Shown: positions 3,765 through 23,204 of the stretch, piece by piece
Layout of the letters: each line of letters begins with the position of its first letter
Position numbering within the stretch: the stretch's first letter is position 1
IMG/VR virus record: IMGVR_UViG_3300038406_000091
Coordinates: 1 to 42,387 of that record
Source of the DNA: a virus
Strand: one strand, 5' to 3'
Length of the DNA: 42,387 nt
Position numbers and translations under genes: made by a program
The notes under the pieces: model-generated
What the model was told of the DNA's origin: nothing
Seen by the model: only the letters and a program-made list of their open reading frames with translations
Databases searched by the model: none

Positions 3765-4000
3765 TACAGGTACTCTCGCTGTGCGTTGATTAGCTTCTGT
3801 ACGGCATCAGGGCTGGCAGGTATGGCGAGTCCATCGGGGCCTTCTTGGAAGCCGTTGCTTTGTAGCCAGGTGGCCCAATCGGGGGCGGCTTGGCCTGATT
3901 CCTGTGCGGCCATGTTGGCCTTCGTATACATCTCGCGGAGCATCTTGGTAAGACTTGCCGGGCCGCCTGCCATCGGATTCATTTGTGGTGCGGGGTTCAT
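3764..4000 (-). CDS. Hypothetical protein
   Basis: 78-aa ORF, coupled to its neighbours. Confidence 0.5.
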   Translation of the reverse strand: MNPAPQMNPMAGGPASLTKMLREMYTKANMAAQESGQAAPDWATWLQSNGFQEGPDGLAIPASPDAVQKLINAQREYL

Positions 4001-4335
4001 CTGAATGATCTCTCGTATCGGAGGCCATAACGTCTTTGGCCGTCGGTGTCTTGGGCGTTGAAGCCTAGGTTTCCCCCCAGGAGCGGCATTGATCCGTTGA
4101 TCTGCCAGTCTCCTGAGTACTTAACTTGGGTGTCGAGGTTTATCCCGCCTACCGGGCCTCTCAAGCCTATCCCGCGGGCTCCCATTGTGGCGGTGTAGGG
4201 TTGGGTCTCGTATACAAGCTTGCCGCGCTTAAGGGCGATCTTGGGCGTTATCTGCCAATTGCCCAAACTACTCAGCCTGAACCGCTCCTGGGGTGGCGCC
4301 AGCTCCGGCAATTGGTCCTCGTGGAATGGCATCAT
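3997..4335 (-). CDS. Hypothetical protein
   Basis: 112-aa ORF. ATGA overlap at both ends. Confidence 0.5.
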   Translation of the reverse strand: MMPFHEDQLPELAPPQERFRLSSLGNWQITPKIALKRGKLVYETQPYTATMGARGIGLRGPVGGINLDTQVKYSGDWQINGSMPLLGGNLGFNAQDTDGQRRYGLRYERSFR

Positions 4336-4511
4336 CGGTATTCCGCGACAAGGCCGGTCGGCTGGGGCTCTCCACGCTCCACCACGTTGCCGTCTCGATC
4401 GTAAACGGTCTTCATGCCCATGCCGACGTACTTGGTGCCGTCAAACTCAAGCCAGGAGCTGACCTCTACGCGGCCATAGAGCTGTTTGGCGATGATGTTA
4501 AGTTCGTCCAT
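4332..4511 (-). CDS. Small ORF (59 aa), not in the ORF track
   Basis: Hand translation: MDELNIIAKQLYGRVEVSSWLEFDGTKYVGMGMKTVYDRDGNVVERGEPQPTGLVAEYR. ATGA overlap with the downstream gene and TGATG overlap upstream. Confidence 0.45.
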   Translation of the reverse strand: MDELNIIAKQLYGRVEVSSWLEFDGTKYVGMGMKTVYDRDGNVVERGEPQPTGLVAEYR

Positions 4512-4636
4512 CAGTGTGTCCCCGGTGCCGCCTCGATCTCTTCTTCCTCTTCCCCGATGAAGAAGCCGACAACGTTTACACCTTCGGGGATGTCGATTTG
4601 TAGCTCAGTGTCGTCGTCGAGTTGGATGAAGAGCAT
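4511..4636 (-). CDS. Small acidic ORF (41 aa), not in the ORF track
   Basis: Hand translation: MLFIQLDDDTELQIDIPEGVNVVGFFIGEEEEEIEAAPGTH. GGGAG lies within the 12-bp palindrome GGGAGATCTCCC directly upstream of the ATG. Confidence 0.35.
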   Translation of the reverse strand: MLFIQLDDDTELQIDIPEGVNVVGFFIGEEEEEIEAAPGTH

Positions 4637-4657
4637 GGGAGATCTCCCGTGGAAGGA

Positions 4658-4742
4658 TGGCAGGCGAACCGGAATCGAACCGATGTCACAGCTCGTTGTT
4701 TAACGGGGCCCCAGCTGTACTCTGCCACTAAGCTATCGCCTG
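4658..4742 (-). tRNA. tRNA-like gene with normal acceptor, D and T arms but an aberrant, expanded anticodon arm
   Basis: Minus strand: CAGGCGA-TA-GCTT-AGTGGCA-GAGT-A-CAGCT-[GGGGCCCCGTTAAACAACG]-AGCTG-TGAC-ATCGG-TTCGATT-CCGGT-TCGCCTG-CCA. The T-loop (GGTTCGATTCC), the D-loop GG and a 7-bp acceptor stem are canonical. The 'anticodon loop' is 19 nt instead of 7. Confidence 0.5.
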
Positions 4743-4812
4743 CATAAAGGATTTGGCCCCACGCCCTCAGTCCCTTCAATCCGGTTAGTGTGCGGAGGCG
4801 GGAACGTGGGAC

Positions 4813-4850
4813 CAAAACAGAAAAGGCCCGGCCAGTTTCCTGGTCGAGCC
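4813..4850 (-). terminator. Rho-independent terminator downstream of the T5orf172 gene
   Basis: Minus strand: GGCTCGACCAG-GAAA-CTGGCCGGGCC (11-bp stem with one mismatch and one G-U pair) followed by TTTTCTGTTTT. Confidence 0.75.
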
Positions 4851-4871
4851 TTGGTGATCTTGCGTTACTGA

Positions 4872-5354
4872 CTAGACGCCAGCCGCGATTAGCTTTTTAG
4901 CGATACCGGGTACGTCCGCCTTCTCAGCCAGCTTGATTATGGCCAGGACTTCGCCCTCCTTCCTGAACCATTCTCCCTTGACGCCATAGCTGGCTAGGTA
5001 GGCGTGCAGCTTTTCCTCTACCCAGGCCGGTGCCGCGAAAGCGGTTATAAGATCCACCGGAACCGGGATACCTTGGCGAAGCTGGGACATGCGCTTCGTC
5101 AGGTTCCCTGTCATACCAATCTTGACCGCCCGCAGCTCCTTACATTCCACGATGTAGACAGTGGTGCTGGAGTGGAGTTCGTTTACAAGGGATTCCACCT
5201 TTCGGTGGTACAGCTTGCCCTTTTGTTTTGGCTTGGGGAGGTGCTGGTCGCAGTGCTTTTGCCCGGGCTCGGGATCTTTGAGGCAACCCGCCCGAATGCA
5301 GATGCGTGGGAGCGCATCGGTTAGGACACGATGAACCCTAGTTATTTGTGCCAC
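4872..5354 (-). CDS. T5orf172/MUG113-domain protein (GIY-YIG superfamily) with an N-terminal Cys/His cluster
   Basis: 160 aa. 'VYIVECKELRAVKIGMTGNLTKRMSQLRQG...GEWF' fits the T5orf172 pattern. The N-terminus has C-x4-C-x11-C-x2-H. GTG start. Confidence 0.6.
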   Translation of the reverse strand: MAQITRVHRVLTDALPRICIRAGCLKDPEPGQKHCDQHLPKPKQKGKLYHRKVESLVNELHSSTTVYIVECKELRAVKIGMTGNLTKRMSQLRQGIPVPVDLITAFAAPAWVEEKLHAYLASYGVKGEWFRKEGEVLAIIKLAEKADVPGIAKKLIAAGV

Positions 5355-5383
5355 AACCGATGCATACTTTTTTCATCGTGGTA

Positions 5384-5413
5384 ATTCTACCATGGGAATG
5401 GCTCACAAGTCAA
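5384..5413 (-). promoter_or_regulatory. Near-consensus sigma70-type promoter with extended -10 (candidate late promoter)
   Basis: Minus strand: TTGACT-18 nt-(TGG)TAGAAT. The -35 begins 3 nt after the stop codon of ORF 5417..5995. Confidence 0.65.
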
Positions 5414-5416
5414 GTC

Positions 5417-5995
5417 TCAGCTCGCTTCTTTTAGGGCGTCGGCCAAACTGGGGAAATCGCCCTCCCCGCGCAGCTGCCTCACCACTATAGAGACGTTGGC
5501 CACCCCTTCACTATCAAAGAGCTTCACCCGATCCAGGCAAACATCCTTCTTCTTGTCGTAGTCCCTGATCCAATTCTTGGTCGGCATTCCCATGTGGTGG
5601 GCATACGCATCCACCGGCATATCCTTCATGCGCCTGAGCCTCAGGCGGTAATCATCCACGGCGCACTTGCACAGGGCCTTGTGGCGCTCTATGGGGTGAA
5701 AGTCGATGAAGTTGTCCAGGTACACGTCGGAGGCCACGGTTTCGAGGTCGGATTGGTTGTTCTCTTCCCCGTAGGCGTATCTGAGCCAAGCCCGCACGGG
5801 CGCCCGTTGTGCGTTGATGGCGGCCAGAATCCAACCCACCTCCAGGAAATCCACGGTTGCCCAGGCGTTGGCCTTGAAGCTCCGCTCAATACGGCACTGA
5901 TAGCGCATCCATTCGAGCATACCCATTTCCGTCCTTTGTTGGTCGGCCCAGGTCAGGGCGTCGTGTATGCACTGGCGGACGGCGCCTATTTTCAT
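5417..5995 (-). CDS. Hypothetical protein; possible Q-like late antiterminator, mainly by position
   Basis: 192 aa. Last gene of the early operon and immediately followed by a strong promoter and later a terminator, which is the lambdoid Q-pR'-tR' layout. Sequence similarity to Q families is only a vague impression ('AWLRYAYGEE'). Confidence 0.35.
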   Translation of the reverse strand: MKIGAVRQCIHDALTWADQQRTEMGMLEWMRYQCRIERSFKANAWATVDFLEVGWILAAINAQRAPVRAWLRYAYGEENNQSDLETVASDVYLDNFIDFHPIERHKALCKCAVDDYRLRLRRMKDMPVDAYAHHMGMPTKNWIRDYDKKKDVCLDRVKLFDSEGVANVSIVVRQLRGEGDFPSLADALKEAS

Positions 5996-6015
5996 TTATT
6001 GGCTCTCCTGTTTGT

Positions 6016-20152: not shown

Positions 20153-20497
20153 ATGACCCCTCGCGGAATCAGATATAAGGACGCGCCTAAGTACGTTGGC
20201 CGGGATAAGGCCACATTCGACCGCGACTTCCGTCCGTATCTGACTGAAAGGAAAGACGGAAGGAAAGTGATTTTCGACAGACTTGAACTGGACCGCCTGT
20301 TTGAAGAGGATATGAAGCGGCGCGGACGCCCAGGGAGGAACACATGGGACGACCAAAGCTCCCCGAAGGGCTCACATGGCGTGAGAGGCCGGACGGGACG
20401 TACTACGAAGACATCTACTTCAACAAGCAATACCGAGGGAGACGTATTCGCGGCAGCGCGGGAACGGCTGAAGCGAAGGAAGCAGAAAGGCGGCTGA
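20153..20497 (+). CDS. Excisionase-like DNA-binding protein
   Basis: 'IRYKDAPKYVGRDKATFDRDFRPYL...FDRLELDRLF' has an Xis/AlpA-like feel and sits immediately 5' of int. The last ~150 nt overlap int in another frame and are low-complexity. Confidence 0.4.
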   Translation: MTPRGIRYKDAPKYVGRDKATFDRDFRPYLTERKDGRKVIFDRLELDRLFEEDMKRRGRPGRNTWDDQSSPKGSHGVRGRTGRTTKTSTSTSNTEGDVFAAARERLKRRKQKGG

Positions 20498-21417
20498 GGC
20501 AGAAGCTCCAGGAGATCGACAACGCCGAGATTTACGGCCAAAGACCTGATCGGACGTTTGCGGTCGCGGCGGCGAAGTTCCTGGACGACTACCCCGAGGC
20601 CGCACGGTATGAGATCCACCTGGCAAGCCTGATGCCGTATATCGGCAGTCTCTGGCTAAGGCAGGTCAGCAAGCAAAGCCTCAAGCCGTGGATAGAGGCC
20701 CGGTACAAGGAGAAGGTTTCCGCAAGGACGATCAACTGGGGCCTGGAGGCAGTACGCCGGATTCTCCGGTTAGCTGCCTACTACTGGCGCGATGAGTACG
20801 GGCTTTCGTGGATCGACAACGCCCCGATTATCGAGCTGGAGAAGGGGCCGAAGCTGCTGCCCTACCCGCTTTCATGGGAGCAGCAGGACGCGCTCTTTGC
20901 CAGGCTGACCGACCGGATGCGGGATATGTGCCTCTTCGCCGTCAATACCGGCCTGCGGGATCAGGGTGTTGTCCGACTGCGGTGGGACTGGGAGACGGAC
21001 GCGGGGATCGGAGAAACGGTCTTTGTCGTTCCGGGTTCCAGTACTAAGAACGGCAAGACGCATTATGTCGTGCTGAACTCGGAGGCCCGAAGGGTGATTG
21101 AGCGATACCGGGGCAAGGACGATGGCTTTGTGTTCGGGGAGCCCAAGGACACGGCGACCCTGACCAACCGTTCGTGGCAGCTGGCCTGGGCCACCACGAT
21201 AGGCAAGGTACCGGGCTACCTGAAAGGAGTCCACAACCTGCGGCACACGTTCGGCAAGAGACTGCGGGACGCCGGAGTAGACGAACGGGACGTTCAAGAC
21301 CTGCTCCACCACATGCCCAAGACCGTGACCCGGCATTACTCACAGCCGGAGTTGAGGAAGCTGCGGGAGTGTGTGGAGCGGATAGTGCGTAAACCTTTGT
21401 TGAGGGCGGTGGGATGA
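20344..21417 (+). CDS. int: Tyrosine recombinase (phage integrase)
   Basis: 357 aa. 'NTGLRDQGVVRLRW', 'HNLRHTFGKRLRDAGV', 'LLHH...VTRHYS' supply the R..HxxR..Y catalytic signature. Confidence 0.9.
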   Translation: MGRPKLPEGLTWRERPDGTYYEDIYFNKQYRGRRIRGSAGTAEAKEAERRLRQKLQEIDNAEIYGQRPDRTFAVAAAKFLDDYPEAARYEIHLASLMPYIGSLWLRQVSKQSLKPWIEARYKEKVSARTINWGLEAVRRILRLAAYYWRDEYGLSWIDNAPIIELEKGPKLLPYPLSWEQQDALFARLTDRMRDMCLFAVNTGLRDQGVVRLRWDWETDAGIGETVFVVPGSSTKNGKTHYVVLNSEARRVIERYRGKDDGFVFGEPKDTATLTNRSWQLAWATTIGKVPGYLKGVHNLRHTFGKRLRDAGVDERDVQDLLHHMPKTVTRHYSQPELRKLRECVERIVRKPLLRAVG

Positions 21418-21761: not shown

Positions 21762-21828
21762 TGGCGCGCCCGGAGAGATTCGAACTCCCGACCGCCTGGT
21801 TCGTAGCCATGCGGACGGATTAGGGCGC
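21762..21828 (-). other. attP candidate: tRNA-Arg(ACG)-like sequence lacking a D-arm
   Basis: Minus strand: GCGCCCT-AATCCGTCCG-CATGG-CTACGAA-CCAGG-CGGTC-GGGAG-TTCGAAT-CTCTC-CGGGCGC-G-CCA. The anticodon loop, variable region, T-arm, 3' acceptor and CCA are canonical. Only 10 nt stand where the ~17-nt D-arm should be. Lies between convergent operons, one ORF (21414..21734) downstream of int. Confidence 0.55.
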
Positions 21829-21927: not shown

Positions 21928-22956
21928 CTAAGCCCGCTGCCGCTTCCAGGCGAGATAATCGGCCCCCTCTTCCACGTCGAGGCAGACGTGAACTAATCCC
22001 CGCTCGCTCTTAGCATAGGGGTCGATGATGGTCACTGCGTTCTCGAAGTAGGATTGATTCGGCAGGTTCAGTTGCTTCCCGTAGCGATCATGGGTCTTGT
22101 AGGCGCCCACACGCAGGAGATGGGATATCAGCTTTGTGTCCTCGTCGAAGGCCGTCATATAGCCCGAGACGTGGGTATGGCCGGCCACAAAGACATGGTC
22201 CCGAAAGCGCGTCTTGGCGGCCTTGAGCTGGCCGTGCGTGGGATGCCACATGGAATGCCCCGGCCAGTCGTGCGCGGTGTTCACGCGGACCTCGCGGCCG
22301 TTGGGGAAGATCAGGTTAAGCCTTGCCCCCATGTTCTCGTGGACGGTGTTGCAGTGCTTCAGCATCCATTGCACCGGGTCTCCGGATCCAGACCAGCACC
22401 CGTGGTTCCCGTCCAGGAAATACAGCCAGTCCACGGAACGGACGAACCATTCGCCGAGCTGCCATGCTTCTTGCGCGGAGGTGGACTGTTCGGCGTAGAG
22501 CCCCACCAACCTACCGGCCCAGTTGTTCATCGCATCGCCGATATTGCCGGCGAACAAGCCCTCTGTGCGCTTGATAATGTCGATGTGGCGGCGCAGGAGG
22601 CCGATGTTCGTCCCATCGTCATCAACGTGCGGATCGCCGAAATGGGAGATCCCTATCGGGCCGTCGATGTTCACCCGAACATTGATGAGCCTTCGGGCCT
22701 CTTCGGCGAGGTTGACCTGTTCAAATTTCCGTTCCCGCTCGTCTAGCAGCTCTTCCACCGGACGCAATTTGGACGGTAGCTCGGGAACTGTGAAGCCCTT
22801 TTTCCCCTTGGCCTGCATTTCCAGCGCGTAGCCTACCCGGTCCCTAAACGTCTCTCGGGAGACGCCCATGATCCGCGCCGCTTCCGCCTTGCTCCCGCAC
22901 TGTCTGAGTACCGCCAGGACTTCTCTGCACTGCTCGTCTGAGATTGGGCGAGCCAT
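21928..22956 (-). CDS. Calcineurin-like metallophosphoesterase with an N-terminal HTH
   Basis: Start at the internal ATG (MARPISDEQCREVL..., TAATG junction). 'GDPHVDDDG', 'GNIGDAMNNW', 'LDGNHG', 'AGHTHV' are phosphoesterase motifs. The N-terminal 'AEAARIMGVSRETFRDRV' is HTH-like. Confidence 0.65.
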   Translation of the reverse strand: MARPISDEQCREVLAVLRQCGSKAEAARIMGVSRETFRDRVGYALEMQAKGKKGFTVPELPSKLRPVEELLDERERKFEQVNLAEEARRLINVRVNIDGPIGISHFGDPHVDDDGTNIGLLRRHIDIIKRTEGLFAGNIGDAMNNWAGRLVGLYAEQSTSAQEAWQLGEWFVRSVDWLYFLDGNHGCWSGSGDPVQWMLKHCNTVHENMGARLNLIFPNGREVRVNTAHDWPGHSMWHPTHGQLKAAKTRFRDHVFVAGHTHVSGYMTAFDEDTKLISHLLRVGAYKTHDRYGKQLNLPNQSYFENAVTIIDPYAKSERGLVHVCLDVEEGADYLAWKRQRA

Positions 22957-23204
22957 TAAGCCTCCACGGTCTTGATGGTGCGCACCGACTTGAGCATCCC
23001 AGCGGGGATCTCCATGCGGTCGGACCATCGGTTGCATTCGGGGTCGTAGGTCGAGGCGAGGATGATGGATTCCTCGTTGCGCTCGACCAGGAGCCCATAG
23101 GACTTGAGCGGGGGATTGGGTCGGGGCTTCTTGGGATCGTGCTCGAACCAGCCCCCGTCTGTGCGGGCGTCTATCCAGGTGACGCAGACGAGTTTGAGCT
23201 TCAT
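22956..23204 (-). CDS. Hypothetical protein
   Basis: Internal ATG (MKLKLVCVTWIDARTDGGWFEHD...) with an ATGA overlap to the upstream gene. Confidence 0.5.
   Translation of the reverse strand: MKLKLVCVTWIDARTDGGWFEHDPKKPRPNPPLKSYGLLVERNEESIILASTYDPECNRWSDRMEIPAGMLKSVRTIKTVEA

What the first reader, a model, noticed from the sequence alone, without database searches (positions are those of the whole stretch)
4658..4742. tRNA-like gene whose anticodon arm is replaced by a 5-6 bp stem closing a 19-nt insert
Seen: the minus strand has a perfect 7-bp acceptor stem (CAGGCGA/TCGCCTG) followed by CCA. U8, a D-arm (GCTT-AGTGGCA-GAGT) and a textbook T-arm (ATCGG-TTCGATT-CCGGT) are all present.

Between them, the stem (A)CAGCT/AGCTG(T) encloses GGGGCCCCGTTAAACAACG. 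No 7-nt loop with U33 and a purine at 37 can be drawn. The insert can be read as 7 nt (GGGGCCC) plus a 12-nt mini-hairpin (CGTT-AAAC-AACG). Alternatively a CTGGGGC loop (anticodon GGG, G37) could be interrupted by about 16 nt.

The element sits right after a terminator, at the head of the late genes. A 12-bp palindrome, GGGAGATCTCCC (4637..4648), follows it.

Inference, with three options:
- A tRNA carrying a short intron-like or insertion element.
- A decayed tRNA.
- A tRNA-mimic used for something else (processing signal, aminoacylatable decoy, recombination site).

Short insertions of this kind are not a normal feature of bacterial or phage tRNAs.
Basis: seen in the sequence. Interest (0 to 1): 0.6.

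Follow-up and report, generated by a model that had tools for sequence, protein, structure and literature searches.

The report
Phage tRNA look-alike, oversized anticodon loop
A temperate sediment phage carries, just after its late-gene switch, a gene for an RNA with a flawless tRNA body but a 19-base loop where the 7-base anticodon loop belongs, so it almost surely cannot read codons. No relative was found anywhere, so it is most likely a crippled cargo tRNA and only of modest interest.

Summary
Rfam's tRNA model matches 4660-4742 (minus strand) at 44.4 bits (E 2e-6). Every stem pair and every conserved elbow base is intact, but 19 nt stand in place of the 7-nt anticodon loop. ARAGORN in default mode calls nothing.

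In the register that fits the rest of the body, no contiguous excision gives a loop with U33 and a purine at 37. There is no bulge-helix-bulge motif and no group I intron, and no RNA ligase or splicing enzyme was found among the proteins scanned. Splicing to a decoding tRNA is therefore unlikely.

The element lies in a complete 42-kb lambdoid temperate phage, after the Q antiterminator (PF06323), a promoter, a T5orf172 gene and a terminator. Phage 933W keeps its three tRNA genes in the same slot.

No homologue turned up in exact-pattern scans of IMG/VR, JGI metagenomes and 185,579 genomes, nor by similarity search of cultured phages or model scans of TerL relatives. Conservation and covariation could not be tested.

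A contig from another metagenome is identical to the upstream leader and diverges within a base of tRNA position 1, so the element sits at a mosaic joint.

Best reading: a non-decoding, probably crippled cargo tRNA that RNase P can still cut. A working tRNA mimic is not excluded. Earlier notes of this scan describe much larger tRNA expansions in other phages; none was compared here.

The parts
4660..4742 (-). tRNA-shaped gene, C1 to discriminator C73 (83 nt; 71 nt without the 12 extra loop bases)
   Evidence: Rfam RF00005, 44.4 bits, model positions 1-71. The cloverleaf is kept in the MFE folds of 85 nt and 251 nt.
4743..4743 (-). G at position -1. It can pair with C73 to give an 8-bp acceptor stem of the tRNA-His type. 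It is also the G of an ATG that starts a different ORF in a related contig.
   Evidence: Sequence; MFE includes the pair; loose end of run X4.
4694..4712 (-). 19-nt loop in place of the 7-nt anticodon loop. It starts with the 8-nt palindrome GGGGCCCC (4705-4712) and ends with a weak 4-bp mini-hairpin.
4713..4717 (-). 5' strand of the anticodon-type stem (CAGCU)
4689..4693 (-). 3' strand of the anticodon-type stem (AGCUG)
4668..4684 (-). T arm with the canonical UUCGAUU loop and the G53-C61 pair
4719..4733 (-). D arm with A14, G15, G18, G19 and A21. G15 can form the Levitt pair with C48 (4685).
4747..4859 (-). Leader module: intrinsic terminator hairpin plus U-tract (4814-4850) and a second hairpin (4755-4813). 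It is 100% identical in contigs of two other metagenomes, and their flanks differ on both sides.
   Evidence: records 4 and 13, loose ends at 4747 and 4859; fold.
4872..5354 (-). 160-aa ORF with T5orf172/MUG113 (GIY-YIG-like) domain, lying between the promoter and the terminator
   Evidence: Pfam PF13455 and PF10544.
5384..5413 (-). Sigma-70-type promoter-like site with an extended -10, 3 nt after the Q stop codon. It is the only such site found in 4300-5500.
5417..5995 (-). Q-type late antiterminator gene
   Evidence: phrog_304; PF06323 in this protein and all its relatives.
4637..4648 (.). 12-bp palindrome that abuts the ATG of the first late ORF. Its first half (GGGAG) is the likely ribosome-binding site.
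4511..4636 (-). First ORF (41 aa) of the tightly packed late gene string downstream of the element
   Evidence: A contig of run X3 is 98% identical over 4509-4594.

Best explanation
This is a tRNA-derived gene that can no longer decode. Most likely it is a crippled cargo tRNA sitting in the lambdoid slot between Q and the late genes.

Inferred course of events:
1. Q-modified RNA polymerase reads through the terminator at 4814-4850.
2. The 83-nt stretch folds into a normal L-shaped body, because the acceptor, D and T arms and all elbow contacts are intact.
3. Host RNase P cuts at its 5' end, probably leaving G-1 because of the G-1:C73 pair.
4. The 3' end is trimmed and CCA is added.
5. The product cannot act on the ribosome. 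Its 19-nt loop has no U33 turn, no purine at 37 and no 7-nt geometry.

The only likely remaining effect is to cut the late transcript between the terminator leader and the first late ORF.

Shown here: the structure, the position, the lack of a canonical loop, and the lack of relatives. Inferred: transcription, RNase P cleavage, CCA addition, and loss of decoding.
For: - The tRNA model hit is at 44.4 bits, with 19 nt in place of the 7-nt loop. ARAGORN in default mode makes no call.
- The body without 12 nt is 71 nt. That is the minimum length of a canonical class I tRNA, so the design is a standard tRNA plus 12 extra loop bases.
- No excision gives U33 and R37 in the compatible registers. The intron-mode call is forced and non-canonical.
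- The slot matches phage 933W, where the order is Q, pR', terminators, three tRNA genes, then late genes. Here the order is Q, promoter, terminator and the element.
- No other promoter-like site was found in 4300-5500.
- No RNA ligase or splicing enzyme was found among the 35 ORFs scanned.
- The element is missing from every other data set searched and from five complete (94-100%) genomes of TerL relatives. Three of those carry ordinary tRNAs elsewhere.
- A related contig keeps the leader at 100% identity and replaces the element with an ORF start. The element is therefore dispensable at this spot.
- An oversized tRNA-Pseudo gene with an intact body exists in a cultured phage.
Against: - The body shows no decay at all. 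All 21 stem pairs are standard (22 with G-1:C73), and U8, A14, G15:C48, G18, G19, U54, U55, C56 and A58 are kept.
- One contiguous 12-nt insertion into a canonical loop cannot produce the present loop, because position 33 would still be U. At least two changes therefore hit the loop while none hit the other 64 positions. That fits either a very recent lesion or selection on the body.
- The loop carries an 8-nt palindrome. The chance of that in 19 nt is about 5% (my own estimate).
- No RNA data exist, so processing and stability are untested.
Confidence: 0.5

Rival explanations
1. The element is a working tRNA mimic that was never meant to decode. A stable tRNA-framed RNA is released from the late transcript, and its enlarged loop and/or its His-type G-1:C73 acceptor end is the functional part. 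Possible roles are a decoy for tRNA-targeting host defence nucleases, a chargeable but non-decoding RNA, or a deliberate RNase P processing signal for the late mRNA.
For: - The body is flawless while the loop is remodelled by more than one event.
- A G-1:C73 pair is present. From published work, this pair is the main histidyl-tRNA synthetase determinant, and it directs RNase P to leave G-1.
- The cloverleaf is kept in the 251-nt context fold.
- The loop has a palindrome that could pair between two copies.
- Phage tRNAs that counter tRNA-cleaving defences are documented (titles and abstracts of PMC10264068 and PMC11464382, listed).
- Plant mitochondrial t-elements show that tRNA look-alikes can serve as processing signals (PMC1920247, abstract listed).
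Against: - There is not one homologue, so there is no sign of selection.
- A relative has a gene start at this spot instead.
- The loop has no better-than-shuffled target in the phage genome: the best non-self duplex is -24.1 kcal/mol, against -24 to -29.7 for shuffled loops.
- G-1 is simply the G of an inherited ATG.
- C1:G72 is not the usual tRNA-His first pair.
- A decoy without an anticodon loop would not match nucleases that read the anticodon.
Confidence: 0.27
2. The element is a decoding tRNA whose extra bases are removed or tolerated. One version is a tRNA-Pro(GGG) with a 16-nt insert cut at 37/38, read in the shifted register UACAG/CUGUG. The other is the Val(AAC) call that ARAGORN makes.
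For: - In the register shifted by 2, a cut at the canonical 37/38 site gives CUGGGGG, with anticodon GGG and G37. This is the same loop as in the tRNA-Pro(GGG) of Microbacterium phage Big4.
- C1:G72 was found in 5 of 5 phage tRNA-Pro genes examined.
- ARAGORN in intron mode returns a gene.
Against: - The shifted register leaves a 67-nt body with a 2-nt variable region, no nucleotide 26 and a 3-bp D stem.
- The discriminator is C, not the A of tRNA-Pro.
- ARAGORN's loop has G33 and an insert at 31/32.
- There is no BHB motif and no group I intron.
- No ligase or splicing endonuclease gene was found among the ORFs scanned.
- Bacteria have no known pathway for excising 12-16-nt tRNA inserts (established knowledge).
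Confidence: 0.06
3. The element acts at the DNA level. It could be a tRNA-like target or scar of site-specific recombination (a secondary att site or bait for integrases that aim at tRNA genes). Alternatively, its palindromes could be protein-binding sites, with the RNA shape only a leftover.
For: - The left edge of the element coincides, to within about a base, with a mosaic joint.
- Anticodon stems serve as integrase core sites in many tRNA-targeting systems (established knowledge).
- The arm contains the nested palindromes CAGCUG and GGGGCCCC.
- A paper on non-canonical tRNA genes ascribes many of them to integration of mobile elements (PMC9897764).
Against: - The phage's own attP is elsewhere: a tRNA-Arg(ACG) 3' fragment at 21762-21828, next to the integrase gene at 20344-21417.
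- The element is a complete tRNA body, not a 3' fragment.
- No repeat of any part of the arm of 11 nt or more exists elsewhere in the genome.
- GGGGCCCC occurs once, against 1.6 expected.
Confidence: 0.07
4. The element is a chance match or an assembly artefact.
For: The only independent-looking support for the exact sequence is a contig that may come from the same sample.
Against: - E 2.3e-6 for the tRNA model over the whole window.
- A 42,269-nt contig at depth 15 has no differences across 3800-6000.
Confidence: 0.02

Closest known systems
Cargo tRNA genes of lambdoid phages between Q and the late genes (phage 933W: ileZ, argN, argO)
   Same: The slot and gene order are the same: Q antiterminator, late promoter, terminator(s), tRNA gene(s), late genes (compared).
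   Different: The 933W genes are ordinary decoding tRNAs and have their own putative promoter. Here there is one gene with a 19-nt loop, no anticodon and no promoter-like site of its own. There is no sequence similarity.
Oversized tRNA pseudogenes annotated in cultured phages (for example Aeromonas phage Ahp1, 'tRNA-Pseudo', MT161459 11731-11844)
   Same: An intact acceptor, D and T body matches RF00005, with extra bases confined to the anticodon arm (51 nt where 11 are expected).
   Different: The Ahp1 insert is about 40 nt and the gene lies in a tRNA cluster of a large lytic phage. Here the insert is 12 nt and the gene is a single one in a 42-kb temperate phage. The two are not related in sequence.
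tRNA-like processing elements (plant mitochondrial t-elements, PMC1920247; precursor of the P1/P7 C4 antisense RNA, an RNase P substrate, recalled from Hartmann et al. 1995 and not read here)
   Same: A tRNA-shaped fold inside a longer transcript, placed at a boundary between RNA segments, would be cut by RNase P without serving in decoding.
   Different: Those elements are conserved and their cleavage has been shown. Here cleavage is only inferred and no conservation is seen. The loop has no antisense target in the phage, unlike C4.
Intron-bearing tRNAs (archaeal BHB introns; bacterial group I introns in anticodon loops; 'enigmatic' tRNA introns of Lak megaphages, PMC6784885)
   Same: Extra sequence lies inside the anticodon loop of an otherwise normal tRNA gene.
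   Different: The insert is only 12 nt. There is no BHB motif and no group I fold, and no excision restores a canonical loop. The Lak introns were identified by re-prediction with tRNAscan's eukaryote settings and checked by aligning genes with and without the insert.
YrlA / bacterial Y RNAs
   Same: A tRNA-like module that does not decode.
   Different: In Y RNAs the two ends form the Ro-binding stem and the tRNA-like part is an internal module. Here the ends form a normal acceptor stem. No Rfam family other than tRNA matches, and no rsr gene was seen.

Membership tests
Canonical tRNA (Rfam RF00005) | Cloverleaf with a 7-bp acceptor stem, D and T arms, and the conserved elbow bases (U8, A14, G18, G19, U54, U55, C56, A58, G53:C61) | tested here: met
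   44.4 bits against a cut-off of 29, covering model positions 1-71 with no non-standard pair flagged. The bases were read.
Canonical tRNA (Rfam RF00005) | 7-nt anticodon loop with U33 and a purine at 37 | tested here: not met
   The loop is 19 nt. ARAGORN in default mode finds no gene. No 7-nt remainder has U33 and R37 in the registers that fit the body.
Canonical tRNA (Rfam RF00005) | Aminoacylation and use on the ribosome | not testable with these tools
   This needs charging assays or tRNA sequencing.
Intron-bearing tRNA | Excision of one contiguous insert yields a canonical anticodon loop in a full-size body | tested here: not met
   Enumeration. ARAGORN in intron mode gives a loop with G33. 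The Pro(GGG) solution needs a register that leaves 67 nt.
Intron-bearing tRNA | Recognisable intron type: a bulge-helix-bulge motif, or a group I fold of 200 nt or more | tested here: not met
   The insert is 12 nt. No Rfam intron family matches at E up to 1 in 4400-5450. By inspection, there is a 7-nt 5' bulge, a 4-bp helix and no 3' bulge.
Intron-bearing tRNA | A splicing endonuclease or RNA ligase is available | tested here: inconclusive
   None was found among the 35 phage ORFs scanned. The host is unknown.
Phage tRNA pseudogene | tRNA-model match without a usable anticodon loop | tested here: met
Phage tRNA pseudogene | Signs of relaxed constraint elsewhere in the gene, or loss in close relatives | tested here: inconclusive
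   The body has no mismatch. A related contig lacks the element at this spot. No homologue is available for comparison.
tRNA-like RNase P processing element | Acceptor/T-arm mimic embedded in a longer transcript at a segment boundary | tested here: met
   The element lies between the terminator leader and the first late ORF. No promoter-like site of its own was found.
tRNA-like RNase P processing element | Demonstrated cleavage by RNase P | not testable with these tools
   No RNA-holding run was available.
attP or integration-derived tRNA fragment | A partial tRNA (3' part) next to an integrase gene | tested here: not met
   The tRNA body here is complete. The integrase gene is at 20344-21417, and a separate tRNA-Arg 3' fragment is at 21762-21828.
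tRNA-His type acceptor end | G-1 paired with C73 | tested here: met
   G at 4743 and C at 4660. The pair is formed in the MFE fold.
tRNA-His type acceptor end | GUG anticodon | tested here: not met
   There is no 7-nt loop, and no GUG in the 19-nt loop.

The most novel reading that the evidence does not exclude
The element is a selected, anticodon-less tRNA mimic. It would be an RNase P-released, CCA-tailed RNA with a His-type G-1:C73 end and a display loop, made only when Q switches on late transcription. It would act as a chargeable decoy, as a shield against host enzymes that attack tRNA bodies, or as a built-in cutting signal that frees the late mRNA from its terminator leader.
Probability: 0.2. 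Interest if true: 0.6.

Novelty: new member of a known kind. Interest (0 to 1): 0.3.

Why it matters
If this is a dead tRNA, it is a small example of how cargo tRNA genes in the lambdoid late-gene slot are lost, and it warns that covariance models report such relics as tRNA.

If the body is under selection, it would be a very compact natural case of a tRNA frame carrying a non-anticodon loop in a temperate phage. It would be expressed under Q control and easy to test at the bench by RNase P cleavage, CCA addition and histidine charging.

The flanking 113-nt leader is identical in three metagenomes while both its neighbours differ. It may be the more general object: a conserved late-control RNA module that marks recombination joints.

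Tried and rejected
**Homologue searches, all negative**
- blastn of 301 nt and of 86 nt against 50,697 phage records gave only generic T-arm matches.
- Exact patterns for the loop and the 3' half gave nothing in IMG/VR.
- A gapped acceptor-stem pattern gave nothing in genome contigs, IMG/VR or JGI metagenomes.
- A leader pattern gave nothing in IMG/VR or metagenomes.
- Across 80 loci of TerL relatives: blastn and nhmmer, ARAGORN on 36 loci, Rfam on 16 loci, and my own covariance model R1 on all 80. The single 18-bit hit, in L037, lies inside a 449-aa ORF and was rejected.
- RF00005 over ten whole records of relatives found three ordinary tRNAs at other positions.

**Route through neighbouring proteins**
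- The Q protein has seven relatives and the 112-aa late protein has two, all on short contigs.
- The search for related loci with the alignments A1 and A3 found nothing.
- Cluster look-up gave no accession numbers.
- tblastn of Q against cultured phages found nothing.

**RNA evidence**
- No RNA holder was listed for this DNA. The one run labelled RNA was a contig set, probably DNA.

**Ideas tested and dropped**
- Antisense target of the loop in the phage genome: no better than shuffled loops.
- The loop copied from elsewhere in the genome: not so.
- tmRNA: none.
- Isotype of the body, by alignment to 96 labelled phage tRNAs: uninformative. The best match is a tRNA-Met that shares only the T arm.
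- Recurrence of the two palindromes in the genome: not significant for GGGGCCCC, and only loose matches for the 12-mer.

- tRNAscan-SE was not available.
- Relatives cannot be drawn for a virus record.

Full report
**What is there**

On the minus strand, 4660-4742 has every part of a class I tRNA.
- A 7-bp acceptor stem.
- U8 and A9.
- A 4-bp D stem with a 7-nt D loop carrying A14, G15, G18, G19 and A21.
- A26.
- A 5-bp anticodon-type stem, CAGCU/AGCUG.
- A 4-nt variable region ending in C48.
- A 5-bp T stem with the loop UUCGAUU.
- Discriminator C73.

Rfam's tRNA model matches end to end at 44.4 bits. The cut-off is 29, and E is 2.3e-6 for the whole window. No non-standard pair is flagged, and 19 nt are treated as an insertion where 7 loop positions are expected. 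ARAGORN with default settings finds no tRNA in the window.

Two details need correcting. First, the bases after the stem are C73-C-A-U, so a full discriminator-plus-CCA end is not encoded. Second, the base before C1 is G, which can pair with C73 to give an 8-bp stem (the MFE fold forms it).

**The loop**

Without 12 of its 19 loop bases the gene would be 71 nt. That is the minimum length of a canonical tRNA with a 7-nt D loop and a 4-nt variable region. The body therefore expects a 7-nt loop between CAGCU and AGCUG.

I listed every way of removing one contiguous block so that 7 nt remain. In the standard register, and in the register shifted by one, no remainder has U33 with a purine at 37.

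Only a register shifted by two (stem UACAG/CUGUG) gives canonical loops. One of them is CUGGGGG, produced by a cut at the classical 37/38 site. This would be a Pro(GGG) loop. Position 1 is C in all five phage tRNA-Pro genes I looked at. But that register uses up the last D-stem base, leaves no nucleotide 26, and leaves a 2-nt variable region. The product would be a 67-nt body, and the discriminator is C rather than A. I reject it as a working solution.

ARAGORN with introns allowed forces a Val(AAC) call, with a 14-nt insert at 31/32 and G at position 33. That is not credible either.

The loop is therefore mostly open. It begins with GGGGCCCC, which occurs once in the genome against about 1.6 expected.

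**Context**

The window is a complete 42,387-bp virus record with terminal repeats. It comes from a sediment metagenome.

It is a lambdoid temperate phage.
- Repressor-like protein, O-like replication initiator, DnaB-type helicase, HNH endonuclease and integrase.
- A tRNA-Arg(ACG) 3' fragment with CCA next to the integrase gene, which is the likely attP.
- A P22-like large terminase whose nearest cultured relatives infect Proteobacteria.

Upstream of the element, in order, lie:
- a Q antiterminator (phrog_304; PF06323);
- a promoter-like site with an extended -10, 3 nt after the Q stop, which is the only such site in 4300-5500;
- a 160-aa T5orf172/MUG113 gene;
- a terminator hairpin with a U-tract at 4814-4850, followed by a second hairpin.

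Downstream lie a 12-bp palindrome that contains the likely ribosome-binding site, and a string of overlapping late ORFs.

Phage 933W has the same order: Q, pR', terminators, three tRNA genes, then late genes. The element thus occupies a known cargo-tRNA slot. I infer that it is transcribed only when Q lets polymerase pass the terminator.

**Relatives**

None was found.
- The similarity and pattern searches listed under Tried and rejected (cultured phages, IMG/VR, JGI metagenomes, one genome for each of 185,579 species) were all negative.
- Eighty loci around relatives of the terminase hold no tRNA-like sequence by blastn, nhmmer, ARAGORN (36 loci), Rfam (16 loci) or my own model (all 80).
- Ten whole records of relatives hold three ordinary tRNAs at other places.
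- The Q protein and a late protein have a few relatives on short contigs.
- Conservation and covariation therefore could not be tested.

**A mosaic joint**

I laid contigs of four public runs on 3800-6000. The results were as follows.
- A 42-kb contig, probably from the source sample, is identical throughout.
- Short contigs from a second sediment study and from a wastewater study are 100% identical to 4747-4859, the terminator-plus-leader module.
- The wastewater contig then diverges. After a one-base difference in a T run it shares ATGC with the window and continues as an ORF-like sequence (MLLRRGKQTR) that is absent from the window.
- In the window, the same ATG is followed by C1 of the tRNA body and by a stop five codons later.
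- The sediment contig diverges on the other side of the leader, where the window has the end of the T5orf172 gene.

So the new DNA starts within a base or so of tRNA position 1. The element is not needed at this spot in at least one relative. G-1 is simply the G of an inherited start codon.

**Weighing the readings**

A decoding tRNA produced by excision is unlikely.
- No compatible excision exists.
- The insert belongs to no known intron type.
- None of the 35 phage ORFs scanned is an RNA ligase or splicing endonuclease.

An antisense role against the phage's own RNAs is not supported. The best non-self duplex is -24.1 kcal/mol, while shuffled loops reach -24 to -29.7.

A DNA-level att role is unlikely. 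attP is elsewhere and no repeat of the arm exists in the genome.

Two readings are left.

(a) A crippled cargo tRNA. In favour:
- the slot;
- the orphan status;
- the relative that lacks it;
- the existence of an annotated oversized tRNA-Pseudo gene with an intact body in a cultured phage (Aeromonas phage Ahp1; 51 nt where 11 are expected).

(b) A selected tRNA mimic. In favour:
- the body is flawless (21 of 21 standard pairs, or 22 with G-1:C73, and all elbow bases present);
- the loop cannot be explained by one insertion into a canonical loop;
- the G-1:C73 pair, from published work, is the main determinant for histidyl-tRNA synthetase and for RNase P leaving G-1.

In either reading the RNA should be a good RNase P and CCA-adding substrate. 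Its minimal effect would then be to cut the late transcript between the leader and the first late ORF. I put (a) at 0.5, (b) at 0.27, and the rest lower.

**Comparison and novelty**

The element works like, and probably descends from, the cargo tRNAs of lambdoid phages. It fails the defining loop test for a canonical tRNA and the tests for intron-bearing tRNAs. It meets the operational definition of a tRNA pseudogene, and structurally also that of a tRNA-like processing element.

Earlier notes of this scan describe much larger expansions, about 50-150 nt, in tRNA look-alikes of large phages. I did not compare their sequences with this element. Here the insert is 12 nt, in a small temperate phage.

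I file it as a new member of a known kind, with modest interest (0.3). The most novel reading not excluded is a Q-controlled, anticodon-less, possibly histidine-chargeable tRNA mimic. I give that a probability of about 0.2.

Noticed in passing
window 4747-4859 (minus strand): A 113-nt non-coding module (terminator hairpin plus a second long hairpin) is 100% identical in contigs from two other metagenomes, one sediment and one wastewater. The DNA on both sides of it differs. It looks like a conserved late-control RNA module that marks recombination joints.
   Followed up: partly
window 4728-4745 (minus strand): A vestigial five-codon ORF (ATG, four codons, TAG) overlaps the 5' end of the tRNA body. 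Its ATG is the start codon of a different, longer ORF in the wastewater contig.
   Followed up: partly
window 4872-5354 (minus strand): A T5orf172/MUG113 (GIY-YIG-like) gene sits between the late promoter-like site and the terminator, so it would be expressed without Q. A related sediment contig has different sequence where this gene ends.
   Followed up: partly
window 4509-4594: A contig from a third sediment study is 98% identical to the 41-aa first late ORF. It diverges exactly at that ORF's stop codon, which is another joint at a gene border.
   Followed up: no
L089 1498-2108 (minus strand): In a phage with a related terminase, a 176-aa protein with an RNA_ligase domain (PF09414) lies directly upstream of an ordinary tRNA-Thr(TGT). 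This may be a tRNA-repair pairing.
   Followed up: no
L084 11731-11844 (Aeromonas phage Ahp1, MT161459): An annotated 'tRNA-Pseudo' has an intact tRNA body with 51 nt where 11 are expected in the anticodon arm (31.2 bits). It is a cultured-phage case of the same kind of lesion or design.
   Followed up: partly
window 21762-21828 (minus strand): A tRNA-Arg(ACG) 3' part with an encoded CCA lies next to the integrase gene (20344-21417) and is the likely attP.
   Followed up: partly
window 21928-23037 (minus strand): A 369-aa ORF at the far end of the late operon matches a DNA-repair-exonuclease PHROG (phrog_7339, E 2e-36) but no Pfam family.
   Followed up: no
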